Program-made: the position numbers and the translations under genes
Notes under the pieces: model-generated
Databases searched by the model: none
Told to the model about the DNA's origin: nothing
Seen by the model: only the letters and a program-made list of their open reading frames with translations
Shown here: positions 7,241 through 38,980 of the stretch, piece by piece
How the letters are laid out: the number at the start of each line of letters is the position of its first letter
How positions within the stretch are numbered: position 1 is the stretch's first letter
Source: Mobula hypostoma
Taxonomy: Eukaryota
NCBI RefSeq assembly: GCF_963921235.1
Contig: NC_086097.1
Span: 65,908,001 to 65,972,000, forward strand
Direction: 5' to 3'
DNA length: 64,000 nucleotides

Positions 7241-9611
7241 GTAATGGGGGGTGGTAATGGATAGTGGGGTCATTAGGTGTAACACAGTCACTTTACTCAA
7301 CTTAGAGGAAAAAGTCATAGGAAATGGTCTCCATAAGTGCTTGGAAATAGCCATTAGAATGCTAATGCAACTGCAATAATCAAATTGTCTGGTCAAAACA
7401 GGGAGAAATAAAACTAGTTATTAACAAATAATGCTATGCTCTTTGTAATCACAGATATAGTTCTCTATGTGGATACATTCTGGATTTTGAGCTAATATGG
7501 CAAAATAAATTACTGTCTTTCCATAAGGTAACAGAACAAAATTAAGAAACTGATGCAAATACAAAAGACAGAAAAAGACATTTCAAGTGCTATAGTTTGA
7601 GGCCAGTGCAGTTATCCCTGACAGCAGCTCCAGGTCTACAGCACCTGTGTTTACTCTTTAGCTTTTCCTGATTTCCCTGCAAGTAGCCAAAGAATGATAG
7701 TCACTGATATCCAAAACCAAGGGCTTTTAGTAATGTTAATCATTAATGTTACTTTTCTTTGTGACTGTAGGCATTGAGAATGTTTAATTTGCTTTACCTT
7801 CCAAATCACAAGAAGGGTTTGGTCATCATTTACCTGGTGGATCATTCAAATATGAAAAACAAGTCTTCTAATTTAAATTTTTCGTTTTATTGATCAATAT
7901 TTGATACTATTGTATTTGTTTTATAAGCCTACTTTTTAATGCCTTGGTGATTTATAAATTTAAAGATGATAAAATTTAGTTTTAAACAATATGTGAAAGA
8001 AATATAGCAATACATAATAATATTAAAATATGTAAAAGTATATTGCATTTCAACCATTCTTACTTGGTGAAAAATTGATAAATTGATAAAAACTCACTTA
8101 ATTGCATTTTCTTCTACCTCTCATAGACACATTCACAAAATAAGCAAGGACAGTACATTTTTGAATGTCCTTGACATTGTTATGCTACATTGAGGATAGT
8201 TAAAGTAGTATGTCAGATTTTTAAAACTTTAATGGGCACTCCAGTTGGAAGACAGTTTTTGTCAAATGTAAACCAAACTGGTTTCTGCAAGATTTCCATG
8301 TAAGAAAAATGGGAGAGCTGAAACCAAATCTGTGCATCCAGCTTCAGCTCTTAAAAATAAATCTCAGTTCATCAACTGTCATAAGCACACTGATGAAACA
8401 GATGCAGCAATTAGTGAACATTACAATATAACTTACTTGTACTTTTGTTCATGGTTGGGTGAAATTACTGTTTTTTCGATTTTGCACAAATAAATGGACG
8501 ACAATAATCAATGTAAAGCTGCTCACGATCATCTAGGTTCTAAGAAAGTGCTTTGTCTTCATATACTCAAGAAACCCATCGTATCACCCGGAAATGATTA
8601 AAAAATGCATTTAAATTGTTTACATAAATCAAGAGCATTTGCATGTATTTGAAATTGTTAATCCTGCTTTTTATGATGATGAATTACTTTGCTTTTTTTT
8701 GCTTAAGGCAGGGTTTCTATCGAACTCTTCTCAATTATGTTTCAACTTGCCTCCCTATTCTGTGTTTTTAATCATTAACAAAGAGACGGCTCCTGTTACT
8801 CTAGTAACATTTTGTTGCTTGTAGTAGTTGCCAGGTGATATATTCCTCTTGCAATTTTATTTGGAGCAATATTATTTTATGACAGAGCAAAAAGATCTCT
8901 TATCATGCTGTCATCGGTGTGTCATGTTACTGATCCTTTACTTTTTAATTCAATTATGTTAACTTGTAAAGAGAACAGGCTTAATTAGTTCTGCATTACA
9001 ATATTATTCTTTATCTCTAATTCATTTAACTGCATCCTACATCTTTACTGTCTTCATGTTGTCGCAGAAAACTAACTTATCGCTGTTATATTGTTTGTCA
9101 ATATCAAAACAATTTTATGCTGGTATCTCATTACTTTATACTTAAGCAGTGCAAACTTCATGTTCATGTTCTCTTGCTTTTATACTGAACTTTAGAAACA
9201 GGTTTCTATTGGTCTGTGATTCAGACTTAGAGATGAGGATAATGACAAACGTTACATAAATGCAGAGACCACTCTCTTATGTTGGTTCACAAGATTTAAA
9301 GACAGGACTTTGCACTGTAGTGAAGATCCTTAACCTAGCACCTTCATTAAGAATTTGTTGCAGGGTATTTGTTTTGTTGCAGTGCGGTTAAACCAGAAAA
9401 TGTGTTCATGAGAATTCTACATGTGGCATCCAAATAATTAACTATTGCATTCTTAGTAGTATGGGGTTAGAAAAGTATTTGGGGAAGAAATAATGTATTT
9501 GCAAAAAAACTCCATTTGAGGGGTTTCATCAAAAGAAGTATGTGCAATTTTGATAATGTTGATTTTCTAATTCTTTAGTGAAAATACTTTACTTTTTGGC
9601 ATGATAAATGT

Positions 9612-10174
9612 GTTCGTCCATCGTTGACATCGATGAGGACCTCGACACCATTATGATGGTGTCGAGACTAGCGCGTGATTTGGATTTAAGTGAGGGAGAG
9701 TTGCGCAGCGTCAGCCTCACTCTCTCTTCCCAATTCCCATCTGGATCCAGTGGCAAGACAGAGTTGAGACAGCTGGAGATGGGACTAGGCGCAGTGGATG
9801 ACCAGGACATCTTCTGTGTCGTGTCTTGTCCTGCTCTACACGTTCCACGACGCTTGCGGAGACCACTTTCTTGACCGTTGGACCATCCATTGGTTTCGTC
9901 CTCTCAATCAGCCGGAGTCTGTCTTCACATGCTGGGATAGACAACTCCCTATCTCACCGAGGGTTTGAGACCCATCGGCTACCTTCACCTGGTTTAGCCG
10001 GCTTGTCGAAGCCGTTGCCCGGAGTGTGGCCGCTGTCGCATGCCAACAGCTACGGGGAGCCACAGGTGAGAGCTGAGTGCCAGGTGGGGACAAAGGTGGA
10101 CTAACCGCCTTGAAAAGGATGCGACATGCTCCCTCACTAGAGATGCTACCCCTCCCTGACACCCCATACGCCCC
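9612..10174 (-). mobile_element. Non-autonomous RTE-type retroposon (LINE 5' UTR joined to 3' end), no credible coding ORF
   Basis: GC/CpG-rich island in AT-rich DNA; 8-bp TSD ATAAATGT (9604-9611, 10175-10182); 3' end ..CGATGGACGAAC preceded by an 11-bp stem-loop; 5' HDV-like fold. Confidence 0.75.
9985..10165 (-). ncRNA. HDV-like (nested double pseudoknot) self-cleaving ribozyme, predicted
   Basis: P1 GGGGTGT/ACACTCC, P2 TCACCTGT/A-c-CAGGTGA, P3 GGC/GCC, L3 TCCCCGTA plus hairpin, P1.1 CC/GG, GGGCAAC, P4 CGGCTT-cgac-AAGCCG, J4/2 G-C-T-A-A. Confidence 0.8.
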
Positions 10175-12964
10175 ATAAATGTATAAATGTACACTTAAGC
10201 AAATAACATATTTATAGCTTCTTAATGTATTTCATTCAGTGATCCATTCTGATTAAGTAAATTTAAATAATGTAATGGTGGTTAGAATTTTGTTGTAATT
10301 GCTGGTTTTCAAGAGTACTTAGTGATAATGTTTGTGAGAAAATAATTATAATTGCCTTGAAGAGTAGTCCTGCCAACATCTGTTTGATTTCATTCCTCAT
10401 GGTAAGCATTGTCCTACCTATAGTCTTAACATCAGCCACACCCTTAATGTTAATCCTTGATTAATGTGGCAAGAAAATCACAATATCACCTATTAAAATA
10501 TTACTAATTACAAGAATTATTGTCAGATCTCTGAATTTCTACCAAATGTTTTGAAAGAAAAGGAAAATTTGAACAGACAATATATGCAGGAAAAGAATTG
10601 AAACTGCAACATTATTACCAGTTACATTTTCAATCTATAGATCTTTGAGCACTGAGTGAGTAAAATTTATTAATTTAAAAATAATAATAATTGCTTGTTA
10701 AAACTTTATGCAAATCATAAAAGATTATATCTACTACAGTCCTCCAACAAAATGTTGGTATTAGATTGTGCTTTATACTATTCTTAACCAGTTAGCTTGC
10801 GACCTAATTGAAGATTAGTCAAATCTATGAATCCTTAGGTTTTTTGGGCAGTCTTTTCAAATAGTAGACAGGATTATGTTGGAATGGTCATTGTGCAAGT
10901 AGTATATGTATTTCTTAATTAGTTAAAAAATAATTTCCAAGCACTTTAAAAGAGACAAGGGAAGAATACATTGACACCAAAGTTGTTCTCAAATTTATTT
11001 TAGATTTATTTGAAAGTTACGTAAATGTGGACATGTTATTGGATTTATTTCTTGAAATAATCTATGTTTGCTCAAATTTAAGATCTGCTTTTGTTCTGAA
11101 TCTTTAAAGAATTGCTTTGCATAGATTCTAAATATATTTCCAGCTGAGTATGAATCCCTGGCATTGTGAATAATTTTCTGCAAGACTATGCCCTGCTGTC
11201 AAGATTTACCTTTTCTTTGGAGCACTAAATATATGCCCCATTTAGCAATAAAATAAAGTAATGCATAGTTTTCTTGCTTTGTTTCAGCAAAAGTGGCGGT
11301 TTGCGCCCAAAAGTTCCATTTAGCACTGGCAAAGGACAAAAAATGTATTGTGAGATTTGAGATATTGTTCGGTTTGCAGCTAATGCTGGAAAAATATCAG
11401 TTGCACAAGTGCTCAAAGCAATTTCCCAATAAGTCCATTTTTGATAACGCAGTCTTTGTTCAAATCCATTTTTATGCCCAATTTGCACATAGAGCATGAG
11501 CAGTTGCAGGCTTTATTGCAAGCTACTTAAATTAAGGACAACAGGATATACTTGTGGCTAACTTCCTCCATACCAGCAGCTCTCAAGACCTCTTATTAAT
11601 CCAAATAAAAAAGAAATTGAGTCCAAATAGAGAATTCTCACCCGAGTAGAAAAGTCCTTCCATTTGTAGCTTAATGCCGAATAAAACCACCCAATAGAAA
11701 TGAAAATCATTTAGATTATATAATAAATTATATAATAAATATAATAATTATATATATGATTTTGCATCCAAGTACTAAACTGGCAAACTAACCCCATGTC
11801 TGCCCTGACTGCTTATGATTAACCTTTTTCATATTGTGTGCCCAAATTGTAATAATTCTCTGAAAAAAAAGTTACGTTGTTTTCCATGGCAATTTTTTCT
11901 CTTTCTGTAAAGCCATCATAAAGGAAAGGAGCACACTCTAACCATGATTCTTTCACATTTTTCCTATCACTGTCATTTATTGCTTCATTTGGCAGTAAAC
12001 TTAAATATTACGTACCTTTTTTATTATGGGTGGGGTTTGAAAAATCAAGGGGTTGCTCTGCATACTGCATGCCCATAAAACTTTTGCACATGCCATCTTG
12101 GGCATGTATGCCATAGGATCACGACCTATGCCTTCTCTTTGTTGCAAGGTCAACTAAATCCTAGTTCTAGAAAATAAGATGGTTATTCAGTTGGAGGATC
12201 AAGAAATTCCCTTCAATTCTCAACATTCCTTCCAGTATCACATTCCTTTTGTTATTAAGGGGAATTGATACCACACGGGAAAAGAAAGAAGATAGTGAGT
12301 AATATACCAGCAATGCTATCAAAGCTATGGTTGAAAAAAAGGAGTAAGAGATCAGAATATCAAAAGTAGAACTGACTGAAACATCAAAAAATATCAGATA
12401 GGAAGTGAGTGTATTATCATGTCACCATTATGGTGTCAGATAAATCTTGTTCAATCTGAAAGCCTTTAAAACATTCGGTAGCTGCTTAGTTGATTTCAAC
12501 AAAAAGAATATTTGTGAGATTTCACAATCAGGAAGCAAAAAGGAAGATTAAGGGAGCTTCTGGGAAGGGCACCCAAAATATTTTTAGAGAGGAGCGATGA
12601 ATAACGCCATTTCAAATAATTGTAACGTAACGCTTTATGGCTTCTGATTTATTGTGCAGATAAGTAATGTGTTAAAATGTGTGTCCAGAATTAAGCTGTT
12701 TGCTAGAGTGCTTCATTTCATAAGTTGTTTTAATATAGGGGTTTAGCAGACCCATCTTTAATGCAATTTTTGATCTTCTGTTCATCTCAAAAATCACGTT
12801 TACTAGTAATTGACAAATACGTCTGCAAATGAACTGTAAATGCTTCAGATGTTTTACAATGTAAGAAACAAATGCACAGGAAATTTTATCATAGTTCTGA
12901 ATAAAACTATGGTAAATTATAATTACAGGATCAGAGGCTGCAAGTTATCTCAGTAACTCCTGAA

Positions 12965-33285: not shown

Positions 33286-36200
33286 ATGCAAACTGAATTG
33301 GTAAAAATAATTTCCTATAATGTTAATGGGGTTTTGAATCCAATTAAAAGAAATAAGATTATGTCTAAATTGAAAAAAGAGAGGGCACAAATAGCTTTCC
33401 TCCAGGAAACACATATGAGCCAATCTGAACATGGAAAATTAAAAAGAATGGGCTTTAAGCATGTATTTTATTCATCATATAAATTGAGTCACAAAAGAGG
33501 GCTAGCTACTTTAATATCAAGTACTCTTAATTATGAACATATTTCAGAGACTAGAGACAAAGAAGGACGGTTTGTAAAAATCACAGGAAGAATGGAAGGT
33601 ACAGAAATAACATTGCTGAATGTTTATGCTCCTCCAGGTAGTGAATGGTCATTTTATAGACACATTTTTGACCTAATGGTCAGTTCTCGAGGGGTAGTAA
33701 TTTGTGGAGGGGATTTTAATATTAGATTAAATCCTATATTAGATTCTTCAAGAATAGTTATTCAGAATAAACCTCTGACTCGGAAAGTGAATTCATTGAT
33801 GGAGGAGTTGGGAATTATAGATGTCTGGAGGGAATTACACCCTACTAGTAAAGATTATACATATTACTCTTTCCCTCATTCAGCCTATTCAAGGATAGAC
33901 TATTTCTTTATCTTTAATACAGATAGACTCAGGATAAAAAACTGTAATATTGCAATAATTGATCTGTCGGATCATAGCCCAGTCTCTATGTCTCTAATCC
34001 TGGAAAGGAAAATGAGGAAAACACTATGGAGGCTAAACTCACATATACTCAATAACCCGAAAGTAATGGAGAGATTAAGGGGAGAAATCAAAGAATATCT
34101 AGACCTTAATGACACGGGAGAAACATCACCAGTGATTTTATGGGATACCTTGAAAGCTGTACTGAGAGGGAAAATTATTTCCATTACTACTCACATGAAA
34201 AAAATCAATGCACAAAAATTAGCAGACCTTCAAGGAAAATTAAAACGACTTCAAGTTGTAGATAGCAACAAAAGTAATTCAAATCGAAAACAGGAAATTA
34301 GGAAATTGCAAAGTGAAATTGATGATATTTATACATTGGAAACTCAAAGAAATTTTCTTTACCTGAGACAAAAGAATTATGAAGTAGGAGGTAAATCAAC
34401 TAGATTATTAGCATATAAATTACGAAAACAACAAGCAGACAATACAATTCATAAAATAAAGAATCCAAAGACAAAGATTGTGGAGAGTACAATAGGGAAA
34501 ATTCAAGAGAGTTTTGAAACATATTATCGAGAGCTGTACTCCCAACCCCGGGCCCCCAATGAGCAGTGTATAGACAGTGTATTGAATTTTTTAGATCTAC
34601 CTAAACTTACAGATTTACAAAATGAAAGTTTATTAGAACCAGTAACTGTCAAAGAACTGAACGTGGCCATCTCCAGGTTAAAGGCTGGAAAGTCCCCGGG
34701 TTCTGATGGGTTTACCTCAGAGTGGTACAAGTCCCTGAAGACACAGTTAGCCCCATTACTACTTAACACCTTTAATTGGATCTTGCAGAGAGGAGAAACT
34801 CCACCTTCCTGGAGAGAAGCGATTATTTCAGTTATTCCTAAAGAGGGTAAAGATAAACTAGAATGTGGCAATTATCGGCCAATTAGTGTTCTTAATTTAG
34901 ATTACAAACTATTTACATCTATATTAGCGCGCAGATTGGAAAAGCTTTTACCTGGCCTAATCCATTTAGACCAGACTGGATTTATTCAACAAAGACAAAC
35001 ACAGGACAACATAAGGAGAACTCTGCACATATTAGAACAGGTTAATAAGAACGAGACAGAGACAATGGTAGTAGGATTGGACGCTGAGAAAGCTTTTGAT
35101 TCGGTTAGTTGGGCATTCCTATACAGAGTGTTAGGAAGATTCGGCTTTCAAGAAAGGTTTATTAAAGTAATTCAGACTCTATATGACAGCCCTACAGCCC
35201 GAATTAAGATAAATGGGGACCTCTCTGACTCCTTCATTTTAGAGAGAGGCACTAGACAGGGATGCCCAATTTCTCCTCTCCTTTTTGCGCTATATATTGA
35301 ACCACTTGCCCAACTAATAAGACAGAGCGAAATCGTAAAAAGTATCAAGGTGGCAGGGATTGAACAGAAAGTGGCGTTATTCGCAGATGATGTTTTGGTC
35401 TATCTGAGTGAACCAGAAAAATCATTTATAGGATTGTTTACACTGTTGGATGACTTTGGGAAAATATCAGGTTATAAAATAAATGTAAAGAAAACGCAGG
35501 TTATGTCCCTAAATTATACACCATCCAAAAAATTGCAGGATACATACGATCTTAAGTGGGAAGCTAAATCATTAAAATATTTAGGAATAACCCTGCCGAA
35601 GGATCTTTCAACACTGTCACAGGTAAATTATGGGCCATTAATCTCAGAGATAAAAGCAGATATGCATAGATGGAATCTTATCCCCTTGTTAAGTTTAAAT
35701 TCAAGGATAAATACTATAAAAATAAATATTCTTCCTCGGTTATTATATCTTTTCCGTACTTTACCAGTGGAGGTGGATGATAATCAATTCAGGGAATGGG
35801 ACAAATGGATTTCCCGCTTCATTTGGCAAGGAAGGAAACCCAGAATTCGATATAACACCTTACAGTTAGGGAAGGAAGGAGGAGGTATGGTTCTTCCTTG
35901 CCTGAGAAATTATTTTTATGCCTCACAGATAACCCCTCTGTTATATTGGTGTAATAGGGAATATAAGGCTAGATGGAAGGAAATAGAATTTGGATTAGTT
36001 GACAGTTTTCCTCTTCAGGCCTCAATAGCTGACAAAGGATTGATGGCCCAGTTGGAAAAATTTAATAATGCTTGGATAAATCTTACATTAAAAGTATGGC
36101 AGAAGGTGGTTAATTCATGTGGAATTAATAACATGTTAAAACTCTTTAGATGGTGTGCATATGATACCGAATTCCTTCCCAACAGAGGAGATAAAAGATT

Positions 36201-37074
36201 TGAGCTATGGATAAAGAAAGGTCTTACAACCTACCTCTCATTTATAGATAAAAGAGTATTACAAAGTTTCCAAATCCTGCAGGACAAACATGGCCTAGAA
36301 CATAATGACTTTTTTAGGTACTTTCAAATACGAAACTATGTTAACCAGAGTTGTAGATATACAGACCTATCAACAGTAGAATTAGAATTTTTCAAGATTC
36401 TGAATTCGGCTTGCAGTTCAATACCTAGTAAATCAGTTTCTCGCCTATATAATGCACTCTCCCATGCTAAAAATGTAAATACACTGTATATTAAAGAGAA
36501 GTGGGAGAAAGAAGCGGGGTTGGTACTTTCAGAGGAGGCTTGGGGGGAAATCTGCAGCTTTCAATGGTCCTCGACTAATTCTTTGACTTGGAGAGAACAT
36601 TGTTGGAAAAACATTATAAGATACTTCAAGACCCCATATCAGGAAAAATATAAAGATACAAATGTGATGTGTTGGAGAAGGTGCGGCTCCAAGGAGGCAA
36701 ATCATTTTCATATTTTCTGGGATTGCCCTAAATTAAGTCTATTTTGGGAAGGTATTCATAGAACATTAGTTAAGGTACTTAGGTCCCAGATACCTCTGAA
36801 CTTTGAGACGCTCTATTTGGGGCATGTATTGTTCCTTGAACAGAAGGAAGATATAAAGTTGCTGCAGGCCCTCTTAGCGGCAAATAAGAAATCAATCACT
36901 AGAAAATGGCTAAATCCAATACCACCTACATTAGAAGATTGGTACGAAATTATCTTGGAAATATTTAAAATGGAAAAGTTGACTTACTCCCTGAGAACTC
37001 AAAAAGAAACATTTTATCAAATCTGGAATAAATGGATTGAATATATAACCCCACTGCGAGCAGACTTTAGATGA
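33286..37074 (+). CDS. L1 ORF2p, 1262 aa: APE endonuclease, reverse transcriptase, C-terminal CCHC region
   Basis: SYNVNG, LQETH, NVYAP, GGDFN, SRIDY, SDH; KSPGSDG, YRPISVLN, LDAEKAFD, GTRQGCPISP, FADD, YLG; CWRRCG..HIFWDC. Confidence 0.95.
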   Translation: MQTELVKIISYNVNGVLNPIKRNKIMSKLKKERAQIAFLQETHMSQSEHGKLKRMGFKHVFYSSYKLSHKRGLATLISSTLNYEHISETRDKEGRFVKITGRMEGTEITLLNVYAPPGSEWSFYRHIFDLMVSSRGVVICGGDFNIRLNPILDSSRIVIQNKPLTRKVNSLMEELGIIDVWRELHPTSKDYTYYSFPHSAYSRIDYFFIFNTDRLRIKNCNIAIIDLSDHSPVSMSLILERKMRKTLWRLNSHILNNPKVMERLRGEIKEYLDLNDTGETSPVILWDTLKAVLRGKIISITTHMKKINAQKLADLQGKLKRLQVVDSNKSNSNRKQEIRKLQSEIDDIYTLETQRNFLYLRQKNYEVGGKSTRLLAYKLRKQQADNTIHKIKNPKTKIVESTIGKIQESFETYYRELYSQPRAPNEQCIDSVLNFLDLPKLTDLQNESLLEPVTVKELNVAISRLKAGKSPGSDGFTSEWYKSLKTQLAPLLLNTFNWILQRGETPPSWREAIISVIPKEGKDKLECGNYRPISVLNLDYKLFTSILARRLEKLLPGLIHLDQTGFIQQRQTQDNIRRTLHILEQVNKNETETMVVGLDAEKAFDSVSWAFLYRVLGRFGFQERFIKVIQTLYDSPTARIKINGDLSDSFILERGTRQGCPISPLLFALYIEPLAQLIRQSEIVKSIKVAGIEQKVALFADDVLVYLSEPEKSFIGLFTLLDDFGKISGYKINVKKTQVMSLNYTPSKKLQDTYDLKWEAKSLKYLGITLPKDLSTLSQVNYGPLISEIKADMHRWNLIPLLSLNSRINTIKINILPRLLYLFRTLPVEVDDNQFREWDKWISRFIWQGRKPRIRYNTLQLGKEGGGMVLPCLRNYFYASQITPLLYWCNREYKARWKEIEFGLVDSFPLQASIADKGLMAQLEKFNNAWINLTLKVWQKVVNSCGINNMLKLFRWCAYDTEFLPNRGDKRFELWIKKGLTTYLSFIDKRVLQSFQILQDKHGLEHNDFFRYFQIRNYVNQSCRYTDLSTVELEFFKILNSACSSIPSKSVSRLYNALSHAKNVNTLYIKEKWEKEAGLVLSEEAWGEICSFQWSSTNSLTWREHCWKNIIRYFKTPYQEKYKDTNVMCWRRCGSKEANHFHIFWDCPKLSLFWEGIHRTLVKVLRSQIPLNFETLYLGHVLFLEQKEDIKLLQALLAANKKSITRKWLNPIPPTLEDWYEIILEIFKMEKLTYSLRTQKETFYQIWNKWIEYITPLRADFR

Positions 37075-38980
37075 CTCTCCTAATGATTTATATTGCTCTT
37101 CTCATCAACACAGTAATATTGCTAACGTAAGCACCCCTAGTCTAAATGTTTGTTGTTTTTTTTTGGAAAATAGAGAATTAACACAAGTAAAGGGAAAGAT
37201 TTGGGAAAGGGATAAAAAAAAATGAAAAAATTAAGTAAATAAGTACATAGGGATTGGATAATTATGTCTGCGGGCAGGAACACGCACGAACAAATTGGGA
37301 TATAAACACCTACAATGGTTGGTATATAGGCTTGTATGCAACATTTTGGACCAGTGGAAATGGTCCAGAAGGGTTGTATGGAAACTATTATTACCATTTT
37401 TCTTAACAACTAATTTCATTACTTAGCCTAATAGGTTAGATTTACCACAGTACATAATTATCTATTTAAATGTTTATTTTCCTTTTATATCATCTCAATG
37501 TGTACTTAAGAATGTATAAATAATTGTAGTTTTATACATATAAAAAAATGGAAAAGGTAAAAAAAAAAGGATCGAAAAGTAATCCGGGAAATTATAGGCC
37601 AGTAAATTTAACGTCGGTGGTAGGTAAGTTATTGGAGGGAGTACTAAGAGACAGAATCTACAAGCATTTGGATAGACAGGGACTTATTAGGGAGAGTCAA
37701 CATGGCTTTGTGCGTGGTAGGTCATGTTTGACCAATCTATTGGAGTTTTTCGACGAGGTTACCAGGAAAGTGGATGAAGGGAAGGCAGTGGATATTGTCT
37801 ACATGGACTTCAGTAAGGCCTTTGACAAGGTCCCACATGGGAGGTTAGTTAGGAAAATTCAGTCGCTAGGTATACATGGAGAGGTGGTATATTGGATTAG
37901 ATATTGGCTCAATGGAAGAAGCCAAAGAGTGGTAGTAGAGAATTGCTTCTCCGAGTGGAGGCCTGTGACTAGTGGTGTGCCACAGGGATCAGTGCTGGGT
38001 CCATTGCTATTTGTCATCTATATCAATGATCTGGATGATAATGTGGTAAATTGGATCAGCAAATTTGCTGATAATACAAAGATTGGAGGTGTAGTAGACA
38101 GTGAGGAAGGTTTTCAAAGCCTGCAGAGGGACTGGGACCAGCTGGAAAAATGGGCTGAAAAATGGCAGATGGAGTTTAATACAGACAAGTGTGAGGTATT
38201 GCATGTTGGAAGGACAAACCAAGGTAGAACATACAGGGTTAATGGTAAGGCACTGAGGAGTGCAGTGGAACAGAGGGATCTGGGAATACAGATACAAAAT
38301 TCCCTAAAAGTGGCGTCACAGGTAGATAGGGTTGTAAAGAGAACTTTTGGTACATTGGCCTTTATTAATCAAAGTATTGAGTATAAGAGCTGGAATGTTA
38401 TGATGAGGTTGTATAAGGCATTGGTGAGGCCGAATCTGGAGTATTGTGTTTAGTTTTGGTCACCAAATTACAGGAAGGATAGAAATAAGGTTGAAAGAGT
38501 GCAGAGAAGGTTTACAAGGATGTTGCCGGGACTTGAGAAACTTAGTTACAGAGAAAGGTTGAATAGGTTAGGACTTTATTCCCTGGAGCGTAGAAGAATG
38601 AGGGGAGATTTGATAGAGGTATATAAAATTATGATGGGTATAGATAGAGTGAATGCAAGCAGGCTTTTTCCACTGAGGCAAGGGGAGAAAAAAACCAGAG
38701 GACATGGGTTAGGGGTGAGGGGGGAAAAGTTTAAAGGGAACATTAGGGGGGGCTTCTTCACACAGAGAGTGGTGGGAGTATGGGATGAGCTGCCAGACGA
38801 GGTGGTAAATGCGGGTTCTTTTTTAACATTTAAGAATAAATTGGACAGATACATGGATGGGAGGTGTATGGAGGGATATGGTCCGTGTGCAGGTCATTGG
38901 GACTAGGCAGAAAATGGTTCGGCACAGCCAAGAAGGGCCAAAAAGGCCTGTTTCTGTGCTGTAGTTTCTATGGTTCAATG

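What the first reader, a model, noticed from the sequence alone, without database searches (positions are those of the whole stretch)
9985..10165. HDV-like ribozyme with an extra hairpin in L3 at the 5' end of a non-coding retroposon
Seen on the minus strand: P1 GGGGTGT (10165-10159) pairs with ACACTCC (10027-10021). J1/2 is about 89 nt. P2 TCACCTGT (10069-10062) pairs with A-c-CAGGTGA (9993-9985). P3 is GGC/GCC. L3 begins TCCCCGTA, keeping the U20, C21, C22 and G25 equivalents. P1' is followed by GGGCAAC, as in the genomic HDV ribozyme, then P4 CGGCTT-cgac-AAGCCG and J4/2 G-C-T-A-A with the catalytic C equivalent at 9997. Unusual feature: a 7-bp hairpin GCTGTTG-gcatg-CGACAGC (10050-10032) lies between L3 and P3', where L3 is normally only 7-8 nt, so standard descriptors would likely miss it. 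The predicted cleavage site (G1 at 10165) is 9 nt from the TSD. Established: HDV-like ribozymes process the 5' ends of R2, RTE and L1Tc-type retrotransposons. Inference: a promoterless retroposon that releases itself from host read-through transcripts with a structurally variant ribozyme. Caveat: CACCTGG in J1/2 (10086-10080) could compete for P2' and modulate or block folding.
Basis: partly seen in the sequence, partly recalled or inferred. Interest (0 to 1): 0.88.

Follow-up and report, generated by a model that had tools for sequence, protein, structure and literature searches.

The report
Variant HDV-like ribozyme heading a retroposon

Summary
The described helices are all present at the stated coordinates on the minus strand. 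They sit at the 5' end of a 564-nt non-coding retroposon (window 10174-9611) with a 7-nt target-site duplication, an (ACA)n-type tail and an empty site in two related organisms.

- **Copy number:** the family has at least 1,865 copies.
- **Sister family:** an older ~540-nt family carries the same RNA module.
- **Differences between the families:** the core differs only in two L3 positions, one hairpin-loop base, J1.1/4 and P4, and every P4 change keeps its pair. The surrounding sequence is 28-77% alike.
- **J1/2:** it is a structured domain with compensatory changes.
- **Extra hairpin:** it lies between L3 and P3' and is constant in both families.
the element starts with a tandem repeat, GGGGTGTAT GGGGTGT. 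Copies begin at the first repeat, so P1 and the cut belong at 10174.
- **Not shown:** there is no cleavage assay, no RNA evidence, no covariation in P1, P2 or P3, no Rfam hit at threshold, and no LINE partner.

Verdict: a probable new structural variant of the known retrotransposon HDV-like ribozymes.

The parts
9611..10174 (-). Whole non-autonomous retroposon copy (564 nt), main family
   Evidence: 29 other loci align to window 10175/10172-9611 at 87.5-94.2% identity. One contig in each of runs X20 and X21 joins 9611 to 10197 at single-copy depth, which marks an empty site. The stop-to-stop frames have no Pfam domain.
10175..10181 (-). 5' target-site duplication CATTTAT
   Evidence: The same 7 nt follow the tail at 9610-9604.
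9604..9610 (-). 3' target-site duplication CATTTAT
   Evidence: Duplications of 7-14 nt are seen at most of the 27 sampled copies that have a recognisable tail.
10168..10174 (-). First repeat, my revised P1 5' strand (GGGGCGT here, GGGGTGT in the family). The predicted cut lies 5' of G10174.
   Evidence: Copy 5' ends. Pairing with P1' holds in 85.1% of cells over 49 copies. This copy has a C-A mismatch at pair 5.
10155..10165 (-). Second repeat. I read 10164-10155 (GGGTGTCAGG) as the 5' strand of a P1.2-type helix.
   Evidence: It pairs with 10084-10075 in the unconstrained minimum-energy folds of 4 of 4 copies folded. 94.3% of cells are paired for the 7 shared pairs.
10075..10084 (-). 3' strand of the P1.2-type helix (CCTGGCACTC), 5 nt upstream of P2
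   Evidence: The sister family has CCGGACACTC and GGGTGTCC-A-GG, so the helix is kept through different letters.
10085..10154 (-). Interior of the structured J1/2 domain (hairpin plus interrupted stem)
   Evidence: RNAalifold. 96.5% of cells are paired. Two family-level compensatory pairs: GC 28 / AU 16 and AU 28 / GC 11. 0 of 500 shuffles reach the observed values.
10063..10069 (-). P2 5' strand, TCACCTG
   Evidence: 95.0% of cells paired; invariant between the family majorities.
10059..10061 (-). P3 5' strand, GGC
   Evidence: 97.9% of cells paired.
10051..10058 (-). L3, TCCCCGTA. Its C2 and C3 pair with GG 10020-19 to form P1.1.
   Evidence: Positions 4-5 vary in 100 listed copies of the two families (hand count): CC 54, AA 19, CT 16, TC 7, AG 3, GA 1.
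10032..10050 (-). Extra hairpin between L3 and P3' (GCTGTTG-gcatg-CGACAGC)
   Evidence: Present in both families. 3,157 exact hits for the L3-plus-hairpin-start word, against 2 exact hits for a hairpin-less junction.
10028..10030 (-). P3 3' strand, GCC
10021..10027 (-). P1 3' strand (ACACTCC here, ACACCCC in the family)
10015..10020 (-). P1.1 GG, then J1.1/4 (GCAA)
   Evidence: J1.1/4 is TACA in the sister family.
9999..10014 (-). P4 hairpin, CGGCTT-cgac-AAGCCG
   Evidence: Family-level compensatory change at pair 2 (GC 30 / CG 14), and UA/UG at pair 5.
9992..9998 (-). J4/2, G-C-T-A-A-A-C, with the candidate catalytic C at 9997
   Evidence: Identical in both family majorities. It aligns to the GGCUAA of Rfam RF02682 in a sub-threshold match.
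9985..9991 (-). P2 3' strand, CAGGTGA
9641..9666 (-). 3' stem-loop, CTCGACACCAT-cata-ATGGTGTCGAG
   Evidence: Read. It is conserved in the main-family copies and is presumably the handle for the partner's reverse transcriptase (inference).
9611..9622 (-). Tail GATGGACGAACA, followed by (ACA)n in other copies
   Evidence: The 16-mer CGATGGACGAACAACA has 768 exact hits, control 0.

Best explanation
The first ~190 nt of this 564-nt non-coding, LINE-dependent retroposon family encode a large HDV-like self-cleaving ribozyme. I think it works as follows.

1. A copy is transcribed as part of a longer RNA (inferred).
2. The first seven bases (GGGGUGU) pair with ACACCCC as P1, and the RNA cuts itself immediately 5' of the element's first G (window 10174). 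This gives the retroposition template its exact 5' end.
3. The second GGGGUGU repeat, plus CAGG, pairs with CCUGGCACUC just upstream of P2. That closes the ~90-nt J1/2 insert as a P1.2-type 'pinch' helix.
4. A constant 6-7-bp hairpin protrudes between L3 and P3'.
5. The 3' stem-loop and (ACA)n tail recruit the reverse transcriptase of an unidentified LINE.

Shown here: the anatomy, the copy ends, conservation across the two families, and covariation in P4 and J1/2. Inferred: catalysis, the choice of P1, and the source of transcription. The window copy has a mismatch in the first-repeat P1, so it may be a weakened copy.
For: **It is a retroposon.**
- 29 other loci align at 87.5-94.2% identity over ~565 nt.
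- Target-site duplications are present, and two related organisms have an empty site.
- The 21-mer at the second repeat has 1,865 exact hits, control 0.

**The fold is not chance.** My descriptor hits only this site in the window. It gave 0 hits in 100 random 128-kb sequences with P1 required and 6 without.

**Copy 5' ends.**
- Of 100 copies listed in genome order (hand count), 73 carry the whole first repeat with at most 1 mismatch, 16 are truncated 1-4 nt into it, and 11 lack it, 7 of which keep TAT.
- Duplications end exactly at G1 in L002, L003, L005, L012, L018 and L029.
- So the template RNA starts with the 7 nt that are a perfect complement of the P1' strand, which lies between P3' and the GG of P1.1.

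**Sister family.** It has 506 hits with at most 1 mismatch, is ~540 nt long and has a different tail. Comparing the family majorities:
- 0 differences in P1, P1', P2, P2', P3, P3', the P1.1 pairs and J4/2.
- 9 differences in 85 core positions: 2 in L3 positions 4-5, 1 in the hairpin loop, 3 in J1.1/4, and 3 in P4 that all keep their pairs.
- The rest of J1/2 is 77% alike, and the downstream sequence 76% falling to 28%.

**Pair counts on 49 copies.**
- 93.2% of cells pair, against 29-51% when the partners are slid.
- P4 pair 2 is GC 30 / CG 14.

**J1/2 domain.**
- 96.5% of cells pair, with two compensatory pairs.
- The second repeat pairs with the stretch before P2 in the minimum-energy folds of 4 of 4 copies folded, leaving nt 1-9 free.

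**Rfam.** The best weak match on the right strand and place is an HDV family, RF02682, covering P1.1, J1/4, P4 and J4/2.

**Literature.** Structured J1/2 helices that activate large HDV-like ribozymes are described in PMC4908430 (passages read). J1/2 loops of 216-498 nt in R2 ribozymes are described in PMC3774820 (passages read).
Against: - No cleavage was tested.
- No run is on record as RNA.
- P1, P2, P3, P1.1 and the extra hairpin never covary. They are simply invariant between two lineages, which fits but does not prove the pairing.
- Rfam gives nothing at gathering score. The best HDV match is 13.2 bits against a cut-off of 44, E = 4.1.
- A 20-nt insert between L3 and P3' lies next to the active site. 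I found no precedent, so it might abolish catalysis.
- The pair at the cut site is G-C, not the G-U wobble that I recall for HDV and CPEB3.
- Nested minimum-energy folds of about -80 kcal/mol tie up L3 and P1' in other pairings.
- The second repeat is an equally good partner for P1': 95.0% of its P1 cells pair.
- The base before G1 is T in 52 of the 73 full-length copies (hand count). I cannot explain this from cleavage.
- No LINE partner with the same head was found.
Confidence: 0.68

Rival explanations
1. One reading: the same ribozyme, but P1 is the second repeat (10165-10159) and the cut lies 5' of G10165, leaving a 9-nt leader behind.
For: In the window copy this P1 has 7 of 7 pairs, while the first repeat has a C-A mismatch. 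Across 49 copies, 95.0% of the second-repeat P1 cells pair, against 85.1% for the first repeat.
Against: An RNA cut there would lose the first repeat, yet 89 of 100 sampled copies keep all or part of it and at most 4 start at the second repeat (hand count). Duplications abut the first repeat. The second repeat pairs with the stretch before P2 in all four minimum-energy folds. The lower first-repeat figure comes largely from 5' truncation of old copies.
Confidence: 0.1
2. A conserved, structured 5' RNA module that has HDV-like shape but does not cut. For example, it could be a former ribozyme disabled by the L3 insert and kept for reverse-transcriptase handling, stability or as DNA promoter sequence. 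The 5' end would then be set by transcription initiation.
For: Only P4 and J1/2 covary. The L3 insert has no precedent that I found. The cut-site pair is G-C. There is no RNA or cleavage evidence. L1Tc shows that one 5' module can be both promoter and ribozyme (PMC3383444, abstract seen).
Against: Between the two families, every core strand of the HDV fold and the J4/2 C are untouched, while neighbouring sequence drifted to 77% or less. The first 7 nt of the RNA are exactly the complement of P1'. A non-catalytic role does not predict that coincidence.
Confidence: 0.17
3. An ordinary Pol III SINE head (tRNA, 5S or 7SL-derived), with the HDV-like fold arising by chance.
For: The element has SINE-like size and copy number. 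It contains a loose box-A-like TAGCACC...GGTGG string (my reading).
Against: ARAGORN finds no tRNA. Rfam finds no small-RNA family at threshold. The B-box-like GGGTCTCAAACCC is not kept in the sister family. The chance rate of the fold is under 1 in 100 windows.
Confidence: 0.04

Closest known systems
HDV-like ribozymes at the 5' ends of non-LTR retrotransposons (R2, R4, RTE, Baggins, L1Tc)
   Same: Same topology (P1, P2, P3, P1.1, P4, with a C in J4/2). Same position at the very first base of the element. Same presumed job of freeing the element RNA from a longer transcript. 5' junctions vary by a few bases, as described for R2s that cut at the element's end (PMC3774820, abstract and passages).
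   Different: A 19-nt hairpin plus one G sits between L3 and P3'. The P1 5' strand is tandemly duplicated. The carrier is a short non-coding element, not a LINE. There is no match at Rfam thresholds.
Large HDV-like ribozymes with a structured J1/2 (the P1.2 domain of drz-Agam-2; PMC4908430)
   Same: A helix closes a long J1/2 insert right next to P1 and P2. Here it is 10 bp, two bases after P1 and five before P2. [quoted passage not shown]
   Different: Here the 5' strand of that helix is a copy of the P1 strand, so it can also compete for P1'. Its effect on activity is untested.
Non-autonomous elements that keep a LINE's ribozyme: NARTc of Trypanosoma cruzi (PMC3383444) and R2-derived SIDEs (PMC3414825)
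   Same: Short non-coding retroposons with an HDV-like ribozyme head and a LINE-type 3' end (abstracts seen).
   Different: Those have a known parent LINE with the same ends, and SIDEs are rDNA-specific. Here there are two dispersed families of roughly 10^3 copies each in a 3.48-Gb genome, and no parent LINE was found.
Rfam RF02682, the HDV ribozyme of Faecalibacterium prausnitzii
   Same: The 3' half aligns (consensus AGGCAACGg...cCGGCUAAG against GGGCAACGG...GCCGGCUAA) at 13.2 bits.
   Different: The score is far below the 44-bit cut-off, and the model has to skip 31 positions of the 5' half.

Membership tests
HDV-like self-cleaving ribozymes | Nested double pseudoknot in the order P1-J1/2-P2-P3-L3-P3'-P1'-P1.1-J1.1/4-P4-J4/2-P2' | tested here: met
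   All strands are present in that order. 93.2-95.5% of cells pair over 49 copies, against 29-51% when slid.
HDV-like self-cleaving ribozymes | Catalytic C in J4/2 (C75 in the recalled numbering), followed by N-A-A | tested here: met
   GCTAA with C at 9997. It is identical in both family majorities.
HDV-like self-cleaving ribozymes | L3 with U, C, C and G at positions 1, 2, 3 and 6, the two Cs forming P1.1 with the GG after P1' (recalled definition) | tested here: met
   TCCCCGTA here and TCCAAGTA in the sister family. Only positions 4-5 vary. P1.1 cells are 93.7% paired.
HDV-like self-cleaving ribozymes | L3 of 7-8 nt closed directly by P3 (recalled; PMC3774820 calls odd L3 spacing in one R2 a substantial deviation) | tested here: not met
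   20 extra nt (hairpin plus G) lie between L3 and P3' in both families. Only 2 exact genome hits exist for a junction without them.
HDV-like self-cleaving ribozymes | 6-7-bp P1 that starts with G at the cut site, with a G-U wobble as its first pair (the wobble is recalled) | tested here: inconclusive
   P1 has 7 bp starting with G, but the first pair is G-C in the family and in this copy.
HDV-like self-cleaving ribozymes | Score at or above the gathering cut-off of an Rfam HDV-type model | tested here: not met
   No hits at gathering in the window. The best match is RF02682 at 13.2 bits against 44.
HDV-like self-cleaving ribozymes | Site-specific self-scission 5' of G1 | not testable with these tools
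   This needs a cleavage assay. Indirect support: copy 5' ends fall at G1.
Retrotransposon 5'-terminal ribozymes | The predicted cut coincides with the element's 5' boundary | tested here: met
Met with the first repeat as P1. 73 of 100 sampled copies are full-length (hand count), and duplications abut G1.
Internally deleted LINE derivatives (SIDE or NARTc type) | A parent LINE that shares the 5' head and 3' tail | tested here: inconclusive
   No such LINE appears in the 363 kb held. The abundant LINE that is present does not share the tail.
Pol III SINEs | A head derived from tRNA, 5S or 7SL RNA with internal promoter boxes | tested here: not met
   ARAGORN finds none. Rfam finds none.

The most novel reading that the evidence does not exclude
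This is a distinct structural subclass of HDV-like ribozymes in which a helix grafted onto the L3/P3 junction is part of the working fold. In addition, the duplicated P1 strand acts as a built-in switch. When the second copy closes the J1/2 domain (P1.2), the first copy forms P1 and the RNA is cut exactly at the element's end. When the second copy captures P1' instead, the RNA is cut 9 nt further in or stays uncut. If so, current descriptors and Rfam models miss a whole class of ribozyme-headed SINE-like elements in large animal genomes.
Probability: 0.3. Interest if true: 0.78.

Novelty: new variant of a known kind. Interest (0 to 1): 0.6.

Why it matters
HDV-like ribozymes are defined by a very tight active-site loop.

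- **Fold tolerance:** a natural, high-copy family that keeps a hairpin grafted next to that loop would widen what the fold is known to tolerate.
- **Search methods:** it would show that descriptor and covariance-model searches under-count these ribozymes.
- **Element biology:** it would add a dispersed, SINE-like, ribozyme-headed retroposon family in a 3.5-Gb genome to the few known non-autonomous cases.
- **Testable switch:** the duplicated P1 strand that doubles as a P1.2 strand offers a simple way to test how peripheral helices steer the choice of cleavage site.
- **Ready material:** the two families already provide natural variants for the assays.

Tried and rejected
- **Rfam:** nothing at gathering score over the whole window. 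In E-value mode over 9300-10400 only chance matches appeared (CncR1, snoZ162).
- **Hammerhead look-alike:** CTGATTGAG...CGAAAC at 9911-9893 is not in the family majority and has no Rfam match, so I treat it as chance.
- **RNA evidence:** no RNA holder is listed. All four runs laid were contigs, so no RNA starts could be read (table 6: none).
- **LINE partner:**
  - The RVT_1 search returned only one very abundant APE+RT LINE family (150 scored of 332,531 candidates). It shares neither the head nor the tail.
- **Core fold alone:** the minimum-energy fold of the core gives P2 and P4 but a different nested centre, z = -2.78. This is as expected for a pseudoknot and says nothing either way.
- **Earlier findings of this scan:** none near the place or by sequence.
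- **Literature:** four searches turned up no L3 or P3' hairpin insert and no such element. The library lacks most subscription papers, so this is weak evidence that it is unpublished.
- **Hairpin-less relatives:** 7 hits with at most 1 mismatch, 2 of them exact. They look like scattered singletons rather than a family, but I could not fetch them to check.

Full report
**Observation.**
- P1 GGGGTGT / ACACTCC (7 bp with one G-U).
- P2 TCACCTG / CAGGTGA.
- P3 GGC / GCC.
- L3 TCCCCGTA.
- A 7-bp hairpin at 10050-10032, then one G before P3'.
- GG after P1', which can pair with the two Cs of L3 to form P1.1.
- P4 CGGCTT-cgac-AAGCCG.
- J4/2 GCTAA with C at 9997.

I wrote a descriptor from recalled family features: P3, a TCC..G L3, an optional insert of up to 30 nt, P3', a 7-nt P1', GG, P4, C-N-A-A, P2, and a G-initiated P1 upstream. 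It hits only this site on either strand of the window. In 100 random 128-kb sequences with the window's dinucleotide make-up it gave 0 hits with P1 required and 6 without. The fold is therefore not a chance pattern.

**What carries it.** The module is the 5' end of a 564-nt repeat at window 10174-9611.
- 29 other loci from the same 3.48-Gb, 200-contig genome align over this span at 87.5-94.2% identity.
- The copy is flanked by CATTTAT on both sides. Duplications of 7-14 nt are seen at most of the 27 sampled copies that have a recognisable tail.
- It ends in GATGGACGAACA, followed in other copies by (ACA)n, and is preceded by an 11-bp stem-loop.
- In two public runs of related organisms, one contig each joins 9611 to 10197 at the depth of the unique flanks. 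The insertion is therefore absent there.
- Its stop-to-stop frames hit no Pfam family. ARAGORN and Rfam find no tRNA or other small-RNA head.
- Exact-word counts give at least 1,865 copies with the second-repeat 21-mer and 768 with the tail 16-mer, with controls of 0.

**The 5' end, and a correction.** The family starts with a tandem repeat, GGGGTGTAT GGGGTGT, and the family's P1' is ACACCCC. Either repeat is a perfect partner.

If the RNA were cut there, the first repeat could not be inherited. I listed 100 copies in genome order, chosen only for an exact 21-mer at the second repeat and a non-A base 14 nt upstream, and counted them by hand:
- 73 carry the complete first repeat with at most one mismatch.
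- 16 are truncated by 1-4 nt within it.
- 11 lack it. Of these, 7 still keep TAT, and at most 4 begin at the second repeat.

Target-site duplications end exactly at the first G in several copies. A few copies carry part of a third repeat inside the duplication, for example L011. The template RNA therefore begins at the first G of the first repeat. This is what cleavage by a ribozyme whose P1 is nt 1-7 would produce. In the window copy that P1 has a C-A mismatch (GGGGCGT) and P1' has a C-to-T change, so this particular copy may be weakened.

**Comparative evidence.** Contigs from other organisms left the window copy at 10091 and 10024, which pointed to a relative that shares only the core. An 18-nt pattern from that lead found 506 sites with at most 1 mismatch in this genome, control 0.

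These sites belong to an older ~540-nt non-autonomous family. It has many 5'-truncated copies and a different tail, GATGGACAACCA(CCA)n. It has the same plan, including the tandem 5' repeat and the extra hairpin.

Comparing the family majorities on 30 main plus 19 full-length sister copies (the 11 truncated sister loci were left out):
- No difference in P1, P1', P2, P2', P3, P3', the P1.1 pairs or J4/2.
- 9 differences in 85 core positions: two in L3 positions 4-5 (CC against AA), one in the hairpin loop, three in J1.1/4, and three in P4.
- The P4 changes turn G-C into C-G and U-A into U-G, so every pair survives.
- The rest of J1/2 is 77% alike, and the downstream sequence falls from 76% to 28%.

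Pair counts show 93.2% of cells paired with the first repeat as P1 and 95.5% with the second, against 29-51% when the partners are slid. The only covarying core helix is P4 (GC 30 / CG 14). The others are invariant, which is compatible with the fold but is not proof of it. There are effectively two lineages, so 'events' are few.

**J1/2.**
- RNAalifold finds a hairpin and an interrupted 11-bp stem inside J1/2.
- On my count 96.5% of cells pair, with two family-level compensatory pairs (GC 28 / AU 16 and AU 28 / GC 11). None of 500 shuffles reaches the observed values.
- The second repeat plus the next bases (GGGUGUCAGG) pairs with CCUGGCACUC, which ends 5 nt before P2.
- The sister family keeps this helix with other letters, GGGUGUCC-A-GG with CCGGACACUC.
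- This helix appears in the unconstrained minimum-energy fold of all four copies that I folded (two main, the window copy, one sister). Those folds leave nt 1-9 unpaired.

This matches the P1.2 'pinch' helix reported to activate large HDV-like ribozymes (PMC4908430, passages read). It also explains the second repeat without making it P1.

**The extra hairpin.**
- It is constant. The word that spans P3, L3 and the hairpin start, with L3 positions 4-5 left free, has 3,157 exact hits. A junction without the hairpin has 2 exact hits and 7 with at most one mismatch, and these look like scattered singletons.
- In the first 100 listed hits, L3 positions 4-5 read CC 54, AA 19, CT 16, TC 7, AG 3 and GA 1 by hand count, while the flanking U-C-C and G are fixed by the pattern.
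- The apical pair varies: U-C in most main copies, G-C in the window copy, L004 and L023.
- I found no description of such an insert in the papers seen. PMC3774820 notes that odd L3 spacing in one R2 'deviates substantially' (passages read).

**Rfam.**
- Nothing reaches threshold.
- On a family-typical copy, the best weak match on the correct strand is RF02682, an HDV-type family. It scores 13.2 bits against a 44-bit cut-off, aligns GGCAACGG...CCGGCUAA, and skips the 5' half.

**What is not shown.**
- There is no cleavage assay and no RNA evidence (no RNA holder is listed).
- There is no covariation in the ribozyme-specific helices.
- The cut-site pair is G-C rather than the recalled G-U wobble.
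- Strong nested alternative folds exist.
- T is the base before G1 in 52 of the 73 full-length copies by hand count, which I cannot explain.
- No parent LINE was found. The only LINE family I retrieved is a very abundant APE+RT family with a 1,262-aa frame in the window, and it shares neither end.

**Comparison and verdict.**
- HDV-like ribozymes at retrotransposon 5' ends, long structured J1/2 inserts and non-coding derivatives that keep the ribozyme are all known: PMC3774820 and PMC4908430 (passages read), PMC3383444 and PMC3414825 (abstracts seen).
- New here are the hairpin at the L3/P3' junction, the duplicated P1 strand that doubles as a P1.2 strand, and the setting in two dispersed SINE-like families.
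- One defining feature of the family, a short L3 closed directly by P3, is not met, and catalysis is untested.
- I therefore file it as working like an HDV-like ribozyme and as a probable new structural variant, not as a proven member.

Noticed in passing
window 33286-37074 (+), 37548-38453 (+): An intact 1,262-aa LINE ORF2 (Exo_endo_phos plus RVT_1), followed by a second RT fragment. It belongs to a very abundant family: 332,531 first-look RVT_1 candidates in the genome, 150 scored, all near 157 bits, many with open frames of 1,264 aa. It shares neither the head nor the tail of the retroposon studied.
   Followed up: partly
window 9893-9911 (-): CTGATTGAGAGGACGAAAC resembles a hammerhead core. 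The family majority reads differently there, and Rfam gives no hammerhead match at E up to 10.
   Followed up: yes
base before G1 of family copies (window 10175): The base just upstream of the first repeat is T in 52 of the 73 full-length copies sampled (hand count). It could reflect a target-site preference or an extra templated U. This is unexplained.
   Followed up: no
L008 and L011 5' junctions; rows with TGTAT before the first repeat: Some copies carry a partial or whole third GGGGTGTAT unit inside the target-site duplication. This suggests that the reverse transcriptase slips on the repeated 5' end.
   Followed up: partly
run X20, joint 10175 to 9611 with 5 letters between (table 5c): One contig (depth 6.4) joins the 3' end of one copy to the 5' start of another, head to tail. 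It could be a single tandem locus or a neighbouring insertion.
   Followed up: no
L002 1724-2113 (+), which corresponds to the 3' 340 nt of the element: A 129-aa stop-to-stop frame runs through the element's tail and has no Pfam match. I did not check whether it stays open in other copies.
   Followed up: partly
L3 positions 4-5 across the genome: TC occurs in 7 of 100 listed copies (hand count). That is high for a non-CpG change and may mark a subfamily with a UCCUCG loop.
   Followed up: no
Parts of the stretch, presumably the repeat, are held by 24 runs from 13 coded organisms in 15 studies. The element family is therefore shared by several organisms.
   Followed up: partly
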